A program made the translations under genes and the position numbers. Below the pieces are notes generated by a model. The model saw only the letters and a program-made list of their open reading frames with translations. It was not told the DNA's origin and did not search any database. 64,000 bases of DNA from Escherichia phage vB_EcoM_G4507, in the sequence record NC_054919.1. One strand, given 5' to 3'. Of this stretch, positions 16,474 to 63,340 are shown one piece after another (positions within the stretch are counted from its first letter, which is position 1; each line of letters starts with the position of its first letter).

Positions 16474-16674
16474 ATGGTACAAAAATTAATGGCACTTGTT
16501 AATGCCATAAAAGGTAATAAAAAACGTATAGCTTTTACTATTTCTGCTATTGTAGGAATTTTACTCTGGAACTTTATTCTATCACCTGTTGCAATTGCGC
16601 ATGGTATTAATATTCCAGTAGTTACTCTTGATACATTTGTAGATTTAGCATTTGCTTTAGTTGGGTTGATTTAA
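16474..16674 (+). CDS. small hydrophobic membrane protein (two predicted TM segments)
   Basis: 66-aa plus-strand ORF with TAAGGAGG RBS 4-5 nt before ATG; sits in 268-nt gap between 56 and 61. Confidence 0.5.
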   Translation: MVQKLMALVNAIKGNKKRIAFTISAIVGILLWNFILSPVAIAHGINIPVVTLDTFVDLAFALVGLI

Positions 16675-17699
16675 ATCTTAGCATATTTAGATAGCCGCAT
16701 TTTAGCCATCAACCCCTGGGCAATATTATTTTTCATATATTCCATAATTTGTTCAGGGGTTGCACCTTCCTTTCTAATCATATCATTGACATCTTTTGAT
16801 TTCCAGGGAGATTTATCCCAAAACATAACCCTTTCTCCTGCATCAACTAATTTAGTCATTCGTTTGATAGTGTCAGGGTGACGAGGTTCATTATCTAAAA
16901 CCCACACTCGTCTATCTTTAAATGGAACAACTTCTAGGTCTAATTGACCACCTGTAATAGCTATACCATTTTCAATAAAAAGTGAATCTATAGGTCCTTC
17001 TAGAACATATACATCACCATCTTTAACTCGTTCAACACCGTAAATTTTTGTTGCCTCAGGATAAGCTTTAATGGTGATATATTTTTGAGGAGCATCTTTC
17101 TTTAATGCACGTCCTTGAAAAGACTCAGCTTTTCCATTAGCATTATAAATTGGAATAACAAGACGAGGCTCAGAAATTTCCTTTTTGTATGTTCCCGGTG
17201 CTATGCTATTAACTAATTTAGGCCATTCGGTTGTAAACCAAAGATATTTCCATTTATCCTTTGGAATACAACGAGCTTTTACATATTTTATAATTGGATG
17301 GTCTTCCGCCAGTTTATCTAATCTAACACATGACGGAAGAGATTTAATTATTTTCTTCTCAGGTTGCTTAGGAAGTTCTTTAGGTTTTTCTACTGGACGA
17401 CTTTTACCTTTTTCTTTTCTTATTTCAAAGATATACTCACGATATAAATCAGGTTCAAACTCCTTTAAATATATTCCGATTGGTGCATGATAATTACAGT
17501 TATAACAATGAATATTTCCTTCATTATTATCACCATAATACCATCCACGAGCTTTATTCTGGTCGGTTTTTGAATCTCCACAAACAGGACATCTAAACCG
17601 CAATTTAAAAGTTGAACTATTATTTACTTGTGTGAATTTAGGTAAATGAGCCAATGCACGATACGCAAACTCATTATCAATCCAAGGTATTGATGACAT
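16671..17699 (-). CDS. 61: DNA primase
   Basis: 342 aa; zinc-ribbon CPVCGDS...CYNC and TOPRIM-like core; matches T4 gp61. Confidence 0.93.
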   Translation of the reverse strand: MSSIPWIDNEFAYRALAHLPKFTQVNNSSTFKLRFRCPVCGDSKTDQNKARGWYYGDNNEGNIHCYNCNYHAPIGIYLKEFEPDLYREYIFEIRKEKGKSRPVEKPKELPKQPEKKIIKSLPSCVRLDKLAEDHPIIKYVKARCIPKDKWKYLWFTTEWPKLVNSIAPGTYKKEISEPRLVIPIYNANGKAESFQGRALKKDAPQKYITIKAYPEATKIYGVERVKDGDVYVLEGPIDSLFIENGIAITGGQLDLEVVPFKDRRVWVLDNEPRHPDTIKRMTKLVDAGERVMFWDKSPWKSKDVNDMIRKEGATPEQIMEYMKNNIAQGLMAKMRLSKYAKI

Positions 17700-17701
17700 T
17701 T

Positions 17702-17866
17702 TTACTCTTCTTTTTCTTTAGATTCCTCTTTTTTCTTTTTAGGAATCTGTTCAGGACCTTTATTTACTACAGCACCTGATGTTGTTCCAGTAGAGATATT
17801 TTCAGGATTACCACCTGAATCTCCAGCGACCATATCTTCTTTAATAAATTCTTTATATGTTTTCAT
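17702..17866 (-). CDS. small protein with capsid-targeting-sequence-like N-terminus (MKTYKEFIKE)
   Basis: 54-aa ORF found by hand; GAGG RBS; TAAtATG junction with upstream gene. Confidence 0.45.
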   Translation of the reverse strand: MKTYKEFIKEDMVAGDSGGNPENISTGTTSGAVVNKGPEQIPKKKKEESKEKEE

Positions 17867-17914
17867 ATTAACCTCTATTCATAAAAGCATTAAAAATTTG
17901 GTCATCAATAGATG
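17866..17914 (-). repeat. direct repeat copy A (~46 bp) spanning gene 3' end and stop/start junction
   Basis: Near-identical to 18225..18270 (3 mismatches). Confidence 0.7.
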
Positions 17915-18224
17915 GCGCAGTAATATTTTCTGCATCATTTAGCAAATCATTAATTTCATCAGATAGCATAACACATGTACCTTTATTTCCTGTAATTGTT
18001 ACTGCACAATTACGAACGTTTTCTTTATCAAATTTTAGGTTAATATTTTCGTAGTGAAAATCCTTTAATGCCGAATATATCTTTAAAATGAAATTGTCTT
18101 TTACTACAATAAACCCAACCTCACTATTAAAACGCGGTTCATGGAAACTGTAATAAACCTTTTCATCTATAAAATCGTATGAAATTTTTTCCATTTTTAA
18201 ATATGAAAATTCAGAACTATACAT
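17868..18224 (-). CDS. hypothetical protein (61.1-like)
   Basis: 118 aa; C-terminus SIDDQIFNAFMNRG shared with next gene. Confidence 0.6.
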   Translation of the reverse strand: MYSSEFSYLKMEKISYDFIDEKVYYSFHEPRFNSEVGFIVVKDNFILKIYSALKDFHYENINLKFDKENVRNCAVTITGNKGTCVMLSDEINDLLNDAENITAPSIDDQIFNAFMNRG

Positions 18225-18859: not shown

Positions 18860-19153
18860 TTATTCGCCTGTGATTTCGGTTACGATATTTTTGTTATTAA
18901 AGTTTTTATCGCAATAAAGAACATAATTATACTGCATTACACCACCAGACTTAAGTTGTTTTTGCACTTCAGCTTTCATTTCAGGACGATCGCGCTCAAC
19001 GATATTCATAATATCCGCTTCAATTTGAGTTTCAACTTCAGTCTGATCTGCAGTCATAGACCATTCACACAAATCTTTATCATATCCTGCCATAGCAGGC
19101 TGAGCAGCACAAGAAGCCAAAGTAAAAATTGTAGCAAAAATAAATTTTTTCAT
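18860..19153 (-). CDS. sp: Spackle periplasmic protein
   Basis: 97 aa; signal peptide MKKFIFATIFTLASCAAQPAMAG; matches T4 Sp. Confidence 0.88.
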   Translation of the reverse strand: MKKFIFATIFTLASCAAQPAMAGYDKDLCEWSMTADQTEVETQIEADIMNIVERDRPEMKAEVQKQLKSGGVMQYNYVLYCDKNFNNKNIVTEITGE

Positions 19154-19683: not shown

Positions 19684-19714
19684 TACTATACCATAGTCTT
19701 GTCAGCTTGTAAAC
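19684..19714 (-). promoter_or_regulatory. early-type promoter upstream of dmd
   Basis: GTTTAC -35 and TATAGT -10 on minus strand. Confidence 0.5.
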
Positions 19715-21513: not shown

Positions 21514-22669
21514 TTAACTGCTCGAGGTCAATTTCTAAATCAGCAGCTGATTTACTTTTACTTTCTGGAGATTTAAATTTTTCAACCTTTGAGTTAATCA
21601 ATTCATCAACTTCAGCTTCAACAATTTCATTACTATCAATAGCACCTAACTGATAAGCGCGTTTAATAGCATCTCGGAATGGTTGATGCTTAAATAAAGG
21701 ACCCCAGAATGTAGTGCAGTTAGTATCTTTTGCACGCCAAGATTTTTCTTCGCGAATCATCTCGCCGGTTTCTTCGTCAAGAAATTCACGAGCATACCAA
21801 CCATTTTTAGGTTTTACTACAAATCCTAATTCTAGAGCCATATCTAACAATCCAGAATAAGGATCGATACCCCCGTCAAATTTAACATCAATAAAGAATT
21901 TACTTTTTTCTTTAACGGTACGAGATTTTTCTACATTTAGAACAAATTGATACCCCTGAAGATCAGAACCATCTTTAATCTGACGCTTACCGATAATGAA
22001 TACAGTATCAGCCGAATACATTACGCCTGTACCGCCTGTCATCACGGTTTTACTAAACATTTCAATTGTTTCAATTGTATGGTTAACCGCAACGCATGGA
22101 ATGTTTTTAATGCTAAAGTAAGGAGTAACAATACGGAATAATGACTTCAGTGATTTAGCACGAGTCATATCTGCCACAGATTTTTCATTTAAGGCATCTT
22201 CCGTTTCTTTCTTAGAAGCCATATTACCAATTGAGTCGATGAATACAATAACCTTTTCACCACGCTCAATAGCTTCAAGCTGGTTCACCATATCAATTTT
22301 CAGCTGTTCAACTGACTGAATCGGCGTATGAATTACTCGTTCCGGGTCAACTCCCATGGATCGCAAATAAGCTGGAGTAATACCAAATTCACTATCATAG
22401 AATAGACAAACCGCGTCAGGATATTTGTTCAAATATGCCGCAACCATAGTCAAAGACATATTTGATTTAAAGTGTTTAGAAGGCCCTGCGAAAATAGTTA
22501 AACCAGACTGCATACCGCCATCAATCGCACCAGAAATAGCAATATTAAGCATTGGGATTTTTGTACGGATTACATCCTTTTCATTAAAGAATTTAGATGT
22601 AGTCAGTTCAGCAGTCATTTTAGAAGTGGAAGCTTTAATCAAACGGGATTTTAAATCTGCGATAGACAT
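21488..22669 (-). CDS. uvsX: RecA-like recombinase UvsX
   Basis: 393 aa; Walker A GPSKHFKS; near-identical to T4 UvsX. Confidence 0.95.
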   Translation of the reverse strand: MSIADLKSRLIKASTSKMTAELTTSKFFNEKDVIRTKIPMLNIAISGAIDGGMQSGLTIFAGPSKHFKSNMSLTMVAAYLNKYPDAVCLFYDSEFGITPAYLRSMGVDPERVIHTPIQSVEQLKIDMVNQLEAIERGEKVIVFIDSIGNMASKKETEDALNEKSVADMTRAKSLKSLFRIVTPYFSIKNIPCVAVNHTIETIEMFSKTVMTGGTGVMYSADTVFIIGKRQIKDGSDLQGYQFVLNVEKSRTVKEKSKFFIDVKFDGGIDPYSGLLDMALELGFVVKPKNGWYAREFLDEETGEMIREEKSWRAKDTNCTTFWGPLFKHQPFRDAIKRAYQLGAIDSNEIVEAEVDELINSKVEKFKSPESKSKSAADLEIDLEQLSDMEEFNE

Positions 22670-62865: not shown

Positions 62866-63340
62866 TTATTTGAACGATTTAACGTACTGAATAGAACCTT
62901 TACTATTTACAAAGGCAATTTTACCATTTTTATTATACATGGTAGCAGTACGCTGATAGCCATAAGTTTGCTTACCAGATTGATAACCAACTAATGCAAA
63001 ATTATCTTCACCCATTTTATTCTGTTTAGCGCGAATGCGTTCATGACCATGTGCCATAAGAACCTTAGCATCACCAGTTACAATGGATCGACGAGTTTTT
63101 TCATCTTCAACTGTATTAACAAAGTCGTCAAATGAATCAAATTTAGCATGAGATTTATTATACAGTTTTCCATCTACTGCATAATTATATCCCTGTACAT
63201 CCATCTCAACTTCTGTACCATCATCCAATACAGCAGTAATTTTCTGTCCTTTTTTTAAATTTCAAAAGATCAGTAAAAGATTCAGCAATAATTTGAGAAT
63301 TAATAGCTGCTTCAGTGATAAATTCTTGATATGTTTTCAT
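62866..63340 (-). pseudogene. internal-protein (ip)-like gene interrupted by +1 frameshift at an A7 tract
   Basis: ATG at 63340 encodes MKTYQEFITEAAINSQIIAESFTDLLKFKK then hits a stop after the A7 run (63250..63256); remaining 120 codons continue in +1 frame; A6 would give one ~158-aa ORF. Confidence 0.55.

What the first reader, a model, noticed from the sequence alone, without database searches (positions are those of the whole stretch)
17702..17866. Unannotated 54-aa ORF with capsid-targeting-like N-terminus between gene 61 and the 61.1-like gene
Hand translation of the 168-nt gap gives MKTYKEFIKEDMVAGDSGGNPENISTGTTSGAVVNKGPEQIPKKKKEESKEKEE with a GAGG RBS and a TAAtATG junction. The first ten residues match the internal-protein capsid-targeting sequence at 8 of 10 positions and end in an I-K-E site that fits the prohead protease rule. 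That suggests a small, packaged and injected peptide encoded in the early anti-defence neighbourhood that also holds sp and dmd.
Basis: partly seen in the sequence, partly recalled or inferred. Interest (0 to 1): 0.6.

Follow-up and report, generated by a model that had tools for sequence, protein, structure and literature searches.

The report
T4 gene 61.1: mini capsid-protein copy
The 54-codon reading frame is real but is the long-annotated phage T4 gene 61.1, and it encodes a free-standing copy of the short piece of the major capsid protein that the head protease cuts, which makes "a small protein taken into the phage head and trimmed there" a plausible, cheaply testable but unproven function.

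Summary
The ORF (window 17702..17866, minus strand, 54 aa) exists exactly as described: the translation, GAGG ribosome site, TAAtATG junction and the 8/10 match to the T4 IPII/IPIII capsid-targeting sequence (CTS) all check. It is not unannotated. It is T4 gene 61.1 (NP_049649, 52/54 identical), annotated in hundreds of relatives.

New here: residues 2-48 are homologous to major capsid protein gp23 residues 57-103 (hhalign 98.5%, E 3e-15; gp23 is the only PDB hit). I-K-E10|D11 aligns with the gp23 maturation site L-T-E65|A66, and the following ~26 residues align with the gp23* "N-fist".

The family occurs across Straboviridae, always just upstream of primase gene 61, in short (~55 aa) and long (~155 aa) forms. 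A hydrophobic-x-Glu motif precedes the core in 152/154 members, and dN/dS is 0.09-0.25.

Best reading (confidence 0.4): a prohead-targeted, gp21-cleaved accessory peptide. Packaging is untested. No protein-level temporal class was assigned in one T4 infected-cell proteome, and knockdown gave no fitness defect. Universal conservation argues against a host-specific anti-defence role.

The parts
17702..17866 (-). Gene 61.1 (54 aa, 5.9 kDa), stop codon included
   Evidence: ORF and translation. It is 52/54 identical to T4 gp61.1, NP_049649. It matches PHROG 1823 at E 7e-34. dN/dS is 0.09-0.25.
17837..17866 (-). Codons 1-10, MKTYKEFIKE: CTS-like N-terminus ending in the predicted gp21 site I-K-E10|D11
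   Evidence: 8/10 identical to the T4 IPII/IPIII CTS, and 26/30 nt identical to their first ten codons. It aligns with gp23 Q57-E65, the last residues of the gp23 propeptide. Cleavage is inferred, not shown.
17756..17836 (-). Codons 11-37, DMVAGDSGGNPENISTGTTSGAVVNKG: conserved core homologous to the gp23* N-fist (gp23 residues 66-91/92)
   Evidence: BLASTP gives 16/37 identical to T4 gp23 57-93. A family profile hits only gp23 chains in the PDB, E 1.2e-5. hhalign gives 98.5%, E 3e-15. The N-fist is defined as residues 66-91 in PMC7136217.
17705..17755 (-). Codons 38-54, PEQIPKKKKEESKEKEE: charged tail. The Lys run aligns with the basic start of the gp23 N-arm; the tail is K/R-rich in other family members.
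   Evidence: Alignments A2, A3 and A5. hhalign extends the match to gp23 residue 103.
17871..17874 (-). GAGG Shine-Dalgarno sequence, 5 nt upstream of the ATG, inside the end of the upstream ORF
   Evidence: Read directly from the sequence.
16671..17699 (-). Gene 61 (DNA primase), starting 2 nt after the 61.1 stop codon: the invariant downstream neighbour
   Evidence: ORF list and annotation of relatives. A primase gene lies downstream on the same strand in all 36 related loci examined.
17868..18224 (-). 118-aa ORF, the upstream neighbour. It is a paralogue of the C-terminal half of AdfA, not a 61.1 relative, and is not part of the feature.
   Evidence: Pfam PF23813 AdfA, residues 22-118 against profile positions 113-211. 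Absent from T4.

Best explanation
[quoted passage not shown] It has three parts: a short N-terminal segment equivalent to the last nine residues of the gp23 propeptide (in T-even phages almost identical to the internal-protein CTS), a prohead-protease (gp21) site I-K-E10|D11, and a ~26-residue copy of the gp23* N-fist followed by a charged tail.

Proposed mechanism (inferred, not shown): the protein is made from the early dmd-to-61 transcript. Through its N-terminal segment it binds the scaffolding core of the assembling prohead, as the internal proteins and the gp23 N-terminus do. gp21 then cuts it after Glu10, leaving a 44-residue, 4.6 kDa peptide. That peptide either stays in the head as a minor internal peptide or docks where a gp23 N-fist would dock.

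It is an accessory factor, not an essential assembly factor.

Shown: the ORF, its selection, its homology to gp23 57-103, the CTS match and the family-wide hydrophobic-x-Glu motif. Inferred: targeting, cleavage and the fate of the peptide.
For: - CTS identity: 8/10 to T4 IPII/IPIII, and T4's own gp61.1 shares MKTFKEF with IPI. All four functionally mapped CTS positions (4, 7, 8, 10) are conserved. Q5K and A9K both occur in JS98 IP-type CTS-bearing ORFs.
- CTS-like N-termini are rare: in the sequence scanned they occur only in IP genes and 61.1.
- Homology to gp23 57-103 places E10|D11 exactly on the known gp23 site E65|A66. BLASTP E 1e-8; gp23 chains are the only hits in the PDB, E 1.2e-5; hhalign 98.5%, E 3e-15.
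- The cleavage-type motif is nearly universal: 152/154 distinct family members have Glu 4-5 residues before the G-D. P3 is Leu or Ile in 120 and Met, Phe or Val in 28. Some members even read L-T-E-A-E-V-A-G-D, like gp23 itself.
- Diverse short forms keep an M-K-x-F-x-E-F-hydrophobic start.
- gp23 residues 66-105 lie inside the unexpanded head in contact with the scaffold (PMC9546572), so a copy of this segment plausibly has the same partners.
- Dispensability matches the internal proteins and Alt. [quoted passage not shown]
- ipII and ipIII RNAs are also classed 'early', so early transcription does not exclude packaging.
Against: - No experimental evidence of gp61.1 in proheads or virions was found. 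The T4 virion mass-spectrometry text I could read does not mention it.
- T4 gp61.1 received no protein-level temporal class (NA) in the infected-cell proteome, although Dmd (60 aa) and gp61.4 did.
- No TATAAATA late promoter and no strict MotA-box promoter serve the gene.
- The CTS-like part is the least conserved part. Long forms carry an unrelated ~110-residue helical domain instead. JS98 gp61.1 differs from that phage's IP CTSs at the key positions 7 and 8.
- The invariant position next to the primase gene is unexplained by a head function.
- The published T4 capsid papers I searched by keyword (N-fist, N-arm, extra or unassigned density) did not mention unassigned N-fist-like density.
Confidence: 0.4

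Rival explanations
1. Cytoplasmic mimic of the gp23 N-terminus. gp61.1 is never packaged. Made early, it occupies a partner that otherwise binds the gp23 junction/N-fist segment: gp21, the scaffold protein, N-fist docking sites on unassembled gp23, or a host factor that senses gp23. It would thereby tune assembly fidelity or head length, or blunt a capsid-sensing host response.
For: - Strong, ancient homology to gp23 57-103, kept at 42-53% identity over 38 residues in five lineages.
- Early transcription with no late promoter.
- The neighbourhood holds dmd, sp and adfA.
- Head-length mutations A66D, A94V and G97S map to this gp23 segment (PMC9546572).
- The conserved part is the N-fist copy, not the CTS.
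Against: - A host-specific decoy would not be expected to stay nearly invariant across phages of Escherichia, Klebsiella, Acinetobacter, Aeromonas and Vibrio.
- It does not explain why the Glu and the P3 hydrophobic residue of a protease-type site are kept in almost every member.
- It does not explain why T-even forms carry a near-exact IP CTS.
- Knockdown gave no fitness defect in the laboratory host.
- No partner is known.
Confidence: 0.25
2. Primase-linked function. The ORF matters because of gene 61. Either it is an upstream coupling ORF that sets primase translation, or it encodes a small charged protein acting with the primase-helicase on DNA. The resemblance to gp23 would be an evolutionary leftover.
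For: - The gene lies just upstream of primase gene 61 on the same strand in all 36 loci examined, usually within about 0-60 nt. In Aeromonas phage SW69-9 it is the only gene between 41 and 61.
- Its stop codon lies 2 nt from the gene 61 ATG in this window.
- K/R-rich tails are common in the family.
Against: - Selection acts on the amino-acid sequence of the N-fist-like core (dN/dS 0.09-0.25; 18 invariant columns among 14 short forms). A pure coupling ORF would not need this.
- RB49 and KP15 have one or two other small ORFs between it and gene 61.
- A replication role does not explain retention of 42-53% identity to gp23, and about 70% by eye in some members.
- CRISPRi-ART reported no polar effects and scored both 61.1 and 61 'Not Fit', so that screen is uninformative on this point.
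Confidence: 0.15
3. External capsid patch. After cleavage, or without it, the peptide binds the outside of the expanded capsid at N-fist docking sites that lack a gp23 N-fist, for example next to gp24 pentons. It would act as a minor cementing peptide.
For: - The N-fist (gp23 residues 66-91) contacts four subunits and ends up on the outer surface after expansion (PMC9958956; PMC9546572).
- gp24* has no N-fist.
- The gp61.1 core covers the whole N-fist.
Against: - Neither the 2020 portal-vertex paper nor the 2022 capsid-expansion paper mentions unassigned density in the passages I read.
- gp24* residues 11-20 already extend onto neighbouring hexamers.
- At the portal the problem is unbound N-fists, not empty sites.
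- A CTS would place the protein inside the shell, not outside.
Confidence: 0.08

Closest known systems
T4 internal proteins IPI, IPII and IPIII (CTS-bearing, gp21-processed ejection proteins)
   Same: The N-terminus MKT(Y/F)KEFIKE against MKTYQEFIAE (IPII/III) and MKTFKEF... (IPI). It ends in an (L/I)-x-E site. The protein is small, dispensable in the laboratory, and its RNA is classed early.
   Different: - The mature part is not a diversifying, host-specific protein. It is a conserved copy of a capsid-protein segment.
- The gene is not in the variable IP loci. It sits at a fixed position upstream of primase.
- Related genera replace the CTS-like start with a ~110-aa domain.
- Packaging has never been shown.
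T4 major capsid protein gp23, residues 57-103 (end of the propeptide, E65|A66 maturation site, N-fist 66-91, start of the N-arm)
   Same: Demonstrable sequence homology over about 47 residues with the cleavage site in register. 16/37 identical in T4, about 70% by eye in some family members.
   Different: - It has no HK97-fold body, so it cannot be a shell subunit.
- Nucleotide identity is only 52%, with third positions near random, so this is an ancient paralogue and not a recent fragment.
- The 'major capsid protein' labels in GenBank for this ORF are mislabels.
PHROG 1823 and PHROG 2086 (unknown function): the short and long gp61.1 families
   Same: The window protein matches PHROG 1823 end to end (E 7e-34). 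It also matches the C-terminal 46 positions of PHROG 2086 (E 2.6e-16).
   Different: Neither family has an assigned function. Long forms add a conserved helical N-domain with no Pfam or PDB fold match.
T4 head internal peptides derived from gp67/gp68/gp22 cleavage, and the Alt propeptides
   Same: Small products of gp21 cleavage at x-x-E sites. Alt is cut at ITE-6 and LTE-619.
   Different: Those derive from late-expressed essential core proteins or from a large enzyme. gp61.1 would be a separately encoded, early-transcribed, non-essential substrate.

Membership tests
T4-type CTS-bearing internal/ejection proteins | N-terminal 10-19-residue propeptide matching the CTS (MKTYQEFIAE type) | tested here: met
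   8/10 identical to T4 IPII/IPIII. Both differences occur in JS98 IP-type CTSs, MKTYKEFIAE and MKTYQEFIKE. 26/30 nt identical to the first ten codons of ipII/ipIII.
T4-type CTS-bearing internal/ejection proteins | The residues that mutagenesis found important: positions 4 and 7 for targeting, 8 and 10 for processing | tested here: met
   Y4 (F4 in T4), F7, I8 and E10 are present. The positions are taken from PMC9026906, citing Mullaney and Black 1996. This is met by sequence only. JS98 gp61.1 has V7 and M8.
T4-type CTS-bearing internal/ejection proteins | Cleavage by prohead protease gp21 after Glu in (L/I)-x-E | not testable with these tools
   The I-K-E10|D11 motif is present and aligns with gp23 L-T-E65|A66. 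A hydrophobic-x-E is present in 152/154 family members. Actual cleavage needs protein work.
T4-type CTS-bearing internal/ejection proteins | Physical presence in proheads and virions, and ejection into the host | not testable with these tools
   No report was found. gp61.1 is absent from the texts and supplements searched. No protein-level temporal class was assigned in the T4 infected-cell proteome.
T4-type CTS-bearing internal/ejection proteins | Protein available when proheads assemble (late or persistent expression) | tested here: inconclusive
   No TATAAATA and no strict MotA-box promoter in the 41-61 cluster. The RNA class is 'early', but so are ipII and ipIII.
T4-type CTS-bearing internal/ejection proteins | Variable, lineage-specific mature domain encoded in the hyperplastic IP loci | tested here: not met
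   The mature part is the most conserved part of the protein. The gene holds a fixed position upstream of primase in 36/36 loci.
Major capsid protein gp23 family (HK97 fold) | Sequence homology to gp23 | tested here: met
   Homology covers gp23 residues 57-103 only: BLASTP E 1e-8, profile against PDB E 1.2e-5, hhalign 98.5%.
Major capsid protein gp23 family (HK97 fold) | HK97-fold body (A and P domains, E-loop) able to form capsomers | tested here: not met
   The protein has only 54 residues. There is no Pfam Gp23 hit. This segment is modelled as disordered in the long form. It is not a capsid protein.
gp61.1 family (PHROG 1823 / 2086) | Core motif E-(D/E/A)-M-V-A-G-D-x-G-G-x(4)-I-A-x-G-x-T-x-G-x(5)-G-P plus a charged tail, encoded upstream of gene 61 | tested here: met
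   PHROG 1823 E 7e-34. 52/54 identical to T4 gp61.1. Synteny.

The most novel reading that the evidence does not exclude
gp61.1 is a conserved, separately encoded 'free N-fist'. This would be a previously unrecognised minor component of T4-like heads, recruited through the same propeptide-end/CTS signal as gp23 and the internal proteins and trimmed by gp21. Its peptide would complete or modulate the capsid lattice, or mimic gp23 towards a host sensor. It would also imply that the internal-protein CTS is evolutionarily the tail end of the gp23 propeptide, turned into a portable packaging tag.
Probability: 0.15. Interest if true: 0.7.

Novelty: new member of a known kind. Interest (0 to 1): 0.42.

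Why it matters
T4 head assembly is one of the best-studied assembly pathways, and its CTS is used as an engineering tag to load foreign proteins into capsids.

Gene 61.1 was still listed as 'unknown function' in a 2025 genome-wide T4 screen. If it is a conserved extra substrate of the targeting and cleavage machinery built from a copy of the capsid protein's own maturation junction, three things follow:
- It would add a component to the T4-like head.
- It would suggest where the CTS came from.
- It would give a natural minimal substrate (54 aa) for studying gp21 specificity and scaffold binding.

If the mimic reading is right instead, it would be a phage-encoded copy of a capsid epitope, relevant to capsid-sensing bacterial immunity.

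More mundanely, the result corrects many database entries that call this 54-aa or ~155-aa protein a 'major capsid protein'.

Tried and rejected
- Pfam scans of the 54-aa protein and of two long forms found nothing.
- The word-indexed protein search with the short form returned only 17 close relatives. Distant members came from tblastn, viral contigs and the full HMM search.
- In the 1.84-billion-protein library the short-form profile found 50 representative clusters but no capsid proteins above threshold. The gp23 link needs pairwise or profile-profile comparison.
- The AlphaFold2 model of the long form was only moderate (pLDDT 63.5; helical N-domain, disordered C-terminus). Foldseek against the PDB gave nothing below E = 3.8, so the N-domain stays unexplained.
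- tblastn of that N-domain against the window found no T-even counterpart.
- A test for co-variation between each phage's gp61.1 core and its own gp23 N-fist showed only a weak diagonal excess: 16-20 of 38 identities everywhere. I do not claim co-evolution.
- A near-MotA box (TGCTTTTA) overlaps the 61.1 start, but it fails the strict middle-promoter pattern. Sigma-70-like hits in the region are no more frequent than in shuffled sequence.
- Literature searches for gp61.1 found no functional study. Miller et al. 2003 and Kai et al. 1996 are not held. My recollection that Kai et al. mutated the 61.x ORFs and saw a phenotype only for 61.5 could not be checked, so I do not use it.
- I rejected a recent gene-23 fragment insertion: 52% nucleotide identity, with third positions 13/37 identical.
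- I rejected a chance ORF on conservation and dN/dS.

Full report

- On the coding strand the context is GAGGTTAATATG. GAGG lies 5 nt from the start codon, and the TAA of the upstream ORF is one base from the ATG.
- The ORF's own TAA is 2 nt from the ATG of primase gene 61 at 17699.
- T4 IPII and IPIII both begin MKTYQEFIAE, and IPI begins MKTFKEFTST. The 8/10 match and the terminal I-K-E are therefore correct.

The description 'unannotated ORF in a gap' is not correct.
- The region is 99-100% identical to many Tequatrovirus genomes in which this ORF is annotated.
- In T4 itself it is gene 61.1 (18966..19130, NP_049649), 52/54 identical to the window protein.
It is absent from T4.

**2. Is it a real gene?**

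Yes.
- tblastn finds the frame in more than 1,400 phage records from Escherichia, Klebsiella, Acinetobacter, Aeromonas, Vibrio and other hosts.
- An exhaustive HMM search of 1.84 billion proteins finds 50 representative clusters.
- Between genera, synonymous sites are saturated while dN/dS is 0.09-0.25.
- The protein matches PHROG 1823 (unknown function) end to end.

**3. What is it related to?**

Several GenBank records call this tiny protein 'major capsid (domain-containing) protein'. That led me to compare it with gp23.
- BLASTP aligns residues 2-38 with T4 gp23 residues 57-93, 16/37 identical, E 1e-8 for the pair.
- A profile of 14 short-form sequences searched against every PDB chain sequence hits only T4 gp23 entries (E 1.2e-5).
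- A profile-profile comparison of 21 diverse short forms against 12 gp23 N-termini gives 98.5% probability, E 3e-15, aligning gp61.1 2-48 with gp23 57-103.

In this alignment I-K-E10|D11 falls exactly on L-T-E65|A66. That is the site where gp21 removes the 65-residue propeptide of gp23 (PMC9546572).
- The next ~26 residues correspond to the gp23* 'N-fist', residues 66-91 (PMC7136217). The N-fist contacts four subunits in the mature shell (PMC9958956).
- Before expansion this segment is disordered, lies inside the shell, and is thought to touch the scaffolding core. Head-length mutations A66D, A94V and G97S map there.
- Nucleotide identity between T4 61.1 and the matching part of gene 23 is only 52%, with third codon positions 13/37 identical. 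The relationship is old, not a recent fragment insertion.
- Some family members are much closer to gp23 in this stretch, reading for example ...LLGEAEVAGDSGYNAQNIASGLTSGAVTNKGP.

**4. Anatomy of the family**

In all 36 related viral-contig loci examined, the gene lies just upstream of primase gene 61 on the same strand.
- The gap to gene 61 is usually about 0-60 nt.
- In Aeromonas phage SW69-9 it is the only gene between helicase 41 and primase 61.

Two architectures exist.
- Short forms (50-70 aa): T4, JS98, RB49, SW69-9 and many metagenomic sequences.
- Long forms (~155 aa, PHROG 2086): KP15, Acinetobacter phages, Salmonella phages Melville and CGG4-1, Yersinia TG1 and Serratia phages. The gp23-like segment is C-terminal and is preceded by a conserved helical domain with no Pfam or PDB match.

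The invariant part is E-(D/E/A)-M-V-A-G-D-x-G-G-...-I-A-x-G-x-T-x-G-...-G-P followed by a charged, usually K/R-rich, tail.

Immediately before that core, 152 of 154 distinct sequences have a Glu 4-5 residues upstream of the G-D.
- Two residues before that Glu, Leu or Ile occurs in 120 sequences and Met, Phe or Val in 28.
- The two exceptions conform on inspection.
- This is the (L/I)-x-E pattern of T4 gp21 sites: IAE in IPII/III, LTE in gp23, and ITE-6 and LTE-619 in Alt.

Diverse short forms also keep an M-K-x-F-x-E-F-hydrophobic start. The CTS-like N-terminus is therefore a trait of the short family, not an accident of this phage.

**5. How good is the CTS match?**

- Mutagenesis summarised in PMC9026906 places targeting mainly at CTS residues 4 and 7 and processing at residues 8 and 10. 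Y/F4, F7, I8 and E10 are all present in the window and T4 proteins.
- In phage JS98, five IP-type ORFs begin MKTYKEFIAE, MKTYNEFIAE, MKTYQEFITE, MKTYNEFLNE and MKTYQEFIKE. Both differences from the T4 CTS therefore occur in IP-type CTSs.
- Against this, JS98's own gp61.1 begins MKSFKEVMNE, which changes positions 7 and 8 conservatively. Long forms have no CTS-like start at all.
- A scan of this window plus about two thirds of the T4 genome found CTS-like starts (at least 6/10) only in T4 IPII, T4 IPIII, an IP-locus ORF of this window, and gp61.1.

**6. Expression and phenotype**

- There is no TATAAATA late promoter and no strict MotA-box promoter in the 41-61 cluster.
- A good early-type promoter lies upstream of dmd, and no terminator-like site lies before gene 61.
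- In T4, 61.1 RNA is classed 'early' and the protein has no assigned temporal class (NA). ipII and ipIII RNAs are also 'early', with 'late' protein (PMC9697503 supplement).
- In the CRISPRi-ART genome-wide T4 screen, 61.1 is annotated 'unknown function' and scored 'Not Fit', score -0.84 (PMC11879866 supplements). It is dispensable in the laboratory host, as the IPs and Alt are for assembly.

**7. Interpretation**

The sequence evidence shows that gp61.1 is a stand-alone copy of the gp23 maturation junction: propeptide end, protease site, N-fist and basic stretch. In T-even phages its start is almost an internal-protein CTS.

The most economical mechanism is that it uses the same partners as that part of gp23 and as the IPs. 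It would bind the scaffolding core, be cut by gp21 after Glu10, and leave a 44-residue, 4.6 kDa peptide. I give this 0.4. Every step after 'has the motifs' is inference.

The rivals are:
- a never-packaged cytoplasmic mimic of the gp23 N-terminus (0.25);
- a primase-linked role suggested by the invariant synteny (0.15);
- an external lattice patch (0.08).

Host-specific counter-defence genes in this cluster (dmd, sp, adfA) come and go between genera, whereas 61.1 is the one small gene that is always there.

**8. Novelty**

The ORF itself is already known and annotated. Its function is not.
- I found no publication that discusses its CTS-like start or its gp23 homology. Automated 'major capsid domain' labels show that pipelines have noticed the similarity.
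- If the main model holds, it is a new member of the known class of CTS-tagged, gp21-processed head proteins. It would be unusual in having a conserved, capsid-derived mature part.
- Interest is moderate. The work is a tidy re-identification plus a testable hypothesis, not a new kind of system.

Noticed in passing
window 62866..63340 (-): Just downstream of lysozyme e there is a 39-aa ORF starting MKTYQEFITE (9/10 to the CTS). It is followed, out of frame, by a 120-aa ORF. Together they look like one internal-protein gene broken by an extra A in an A-run near 63250. Intact 'internal virion protein' genes in fPS-2, ACG-C40 and KIT03 align 534 nt to 535 nt of the window at 99.3-99.8% identity. 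This is either a real frameshift or a sequencing error.
   Followed up: partly
window 17868..18224 (-): This 118-aa ORF between adfA (61.2) and 61.1 is a paralogue of only the C-terminal half of AdfA (PF23813 positions 113-211). It is absent from T4. One related contig (L013) has it, with only a weak partial match (~33%) to AdfA overlapping it, so it may lack a full-length adfA. It may be a variant anti-DarT factor.
   Followed up: partly
window 16474..16674 (+): A 66-aa hydrophobic ORF lies on the opposite strand between genes 56 and 61. It is annotated as hypothetical in relatives (NR1, teqhal). It occupies the place where T4 carries dam, and this phage also lacks segF here.
   Followed up: no
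L063 (JS98, EF469154.1) about 22261..22554 (-): An unannotated 97-aa ORF starting MKTYQEFIKE lies in the gap between trna.4 and 57B, the ipI position. JS98 thus has five CTS-type ORFs, of which only one is annotated as an internal protein.
   Followed up: no
public records for the 61.1 family (for example PEC04, Roth77, BL02, EcS1, fHyAci03): The 54-aa or ~155-aa proteins are labelled 'major capsid protein' or 'major capsid domain-containing protein'. This is a propagated mislabel that comes from the N-fist similarity.
   Followed up: yes
window 19685..19713 (-): A strong early-type promoter (TTTACA, 17-nt spacer, TG-TATAGT) lies upstream of dmd. No terminator-like structure lies between it and gene 61, which suggests one early transcript dmd-61.4-sp-adfA-orf118-61.1-61.
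   Followed up: no
long-form 61.1 proteins (for example L029 2183..2647, KP15_24): A conserved ~110-residue helical N-domain (motifs YAYKFIRLMQK, W.A, IID.KG.VLKRP, YTPFHA.VR..KR) has no Pfam, PDB-sequence or Foldseek match and no counterpart in the window. Its function is unknown.
   Followed up: partly
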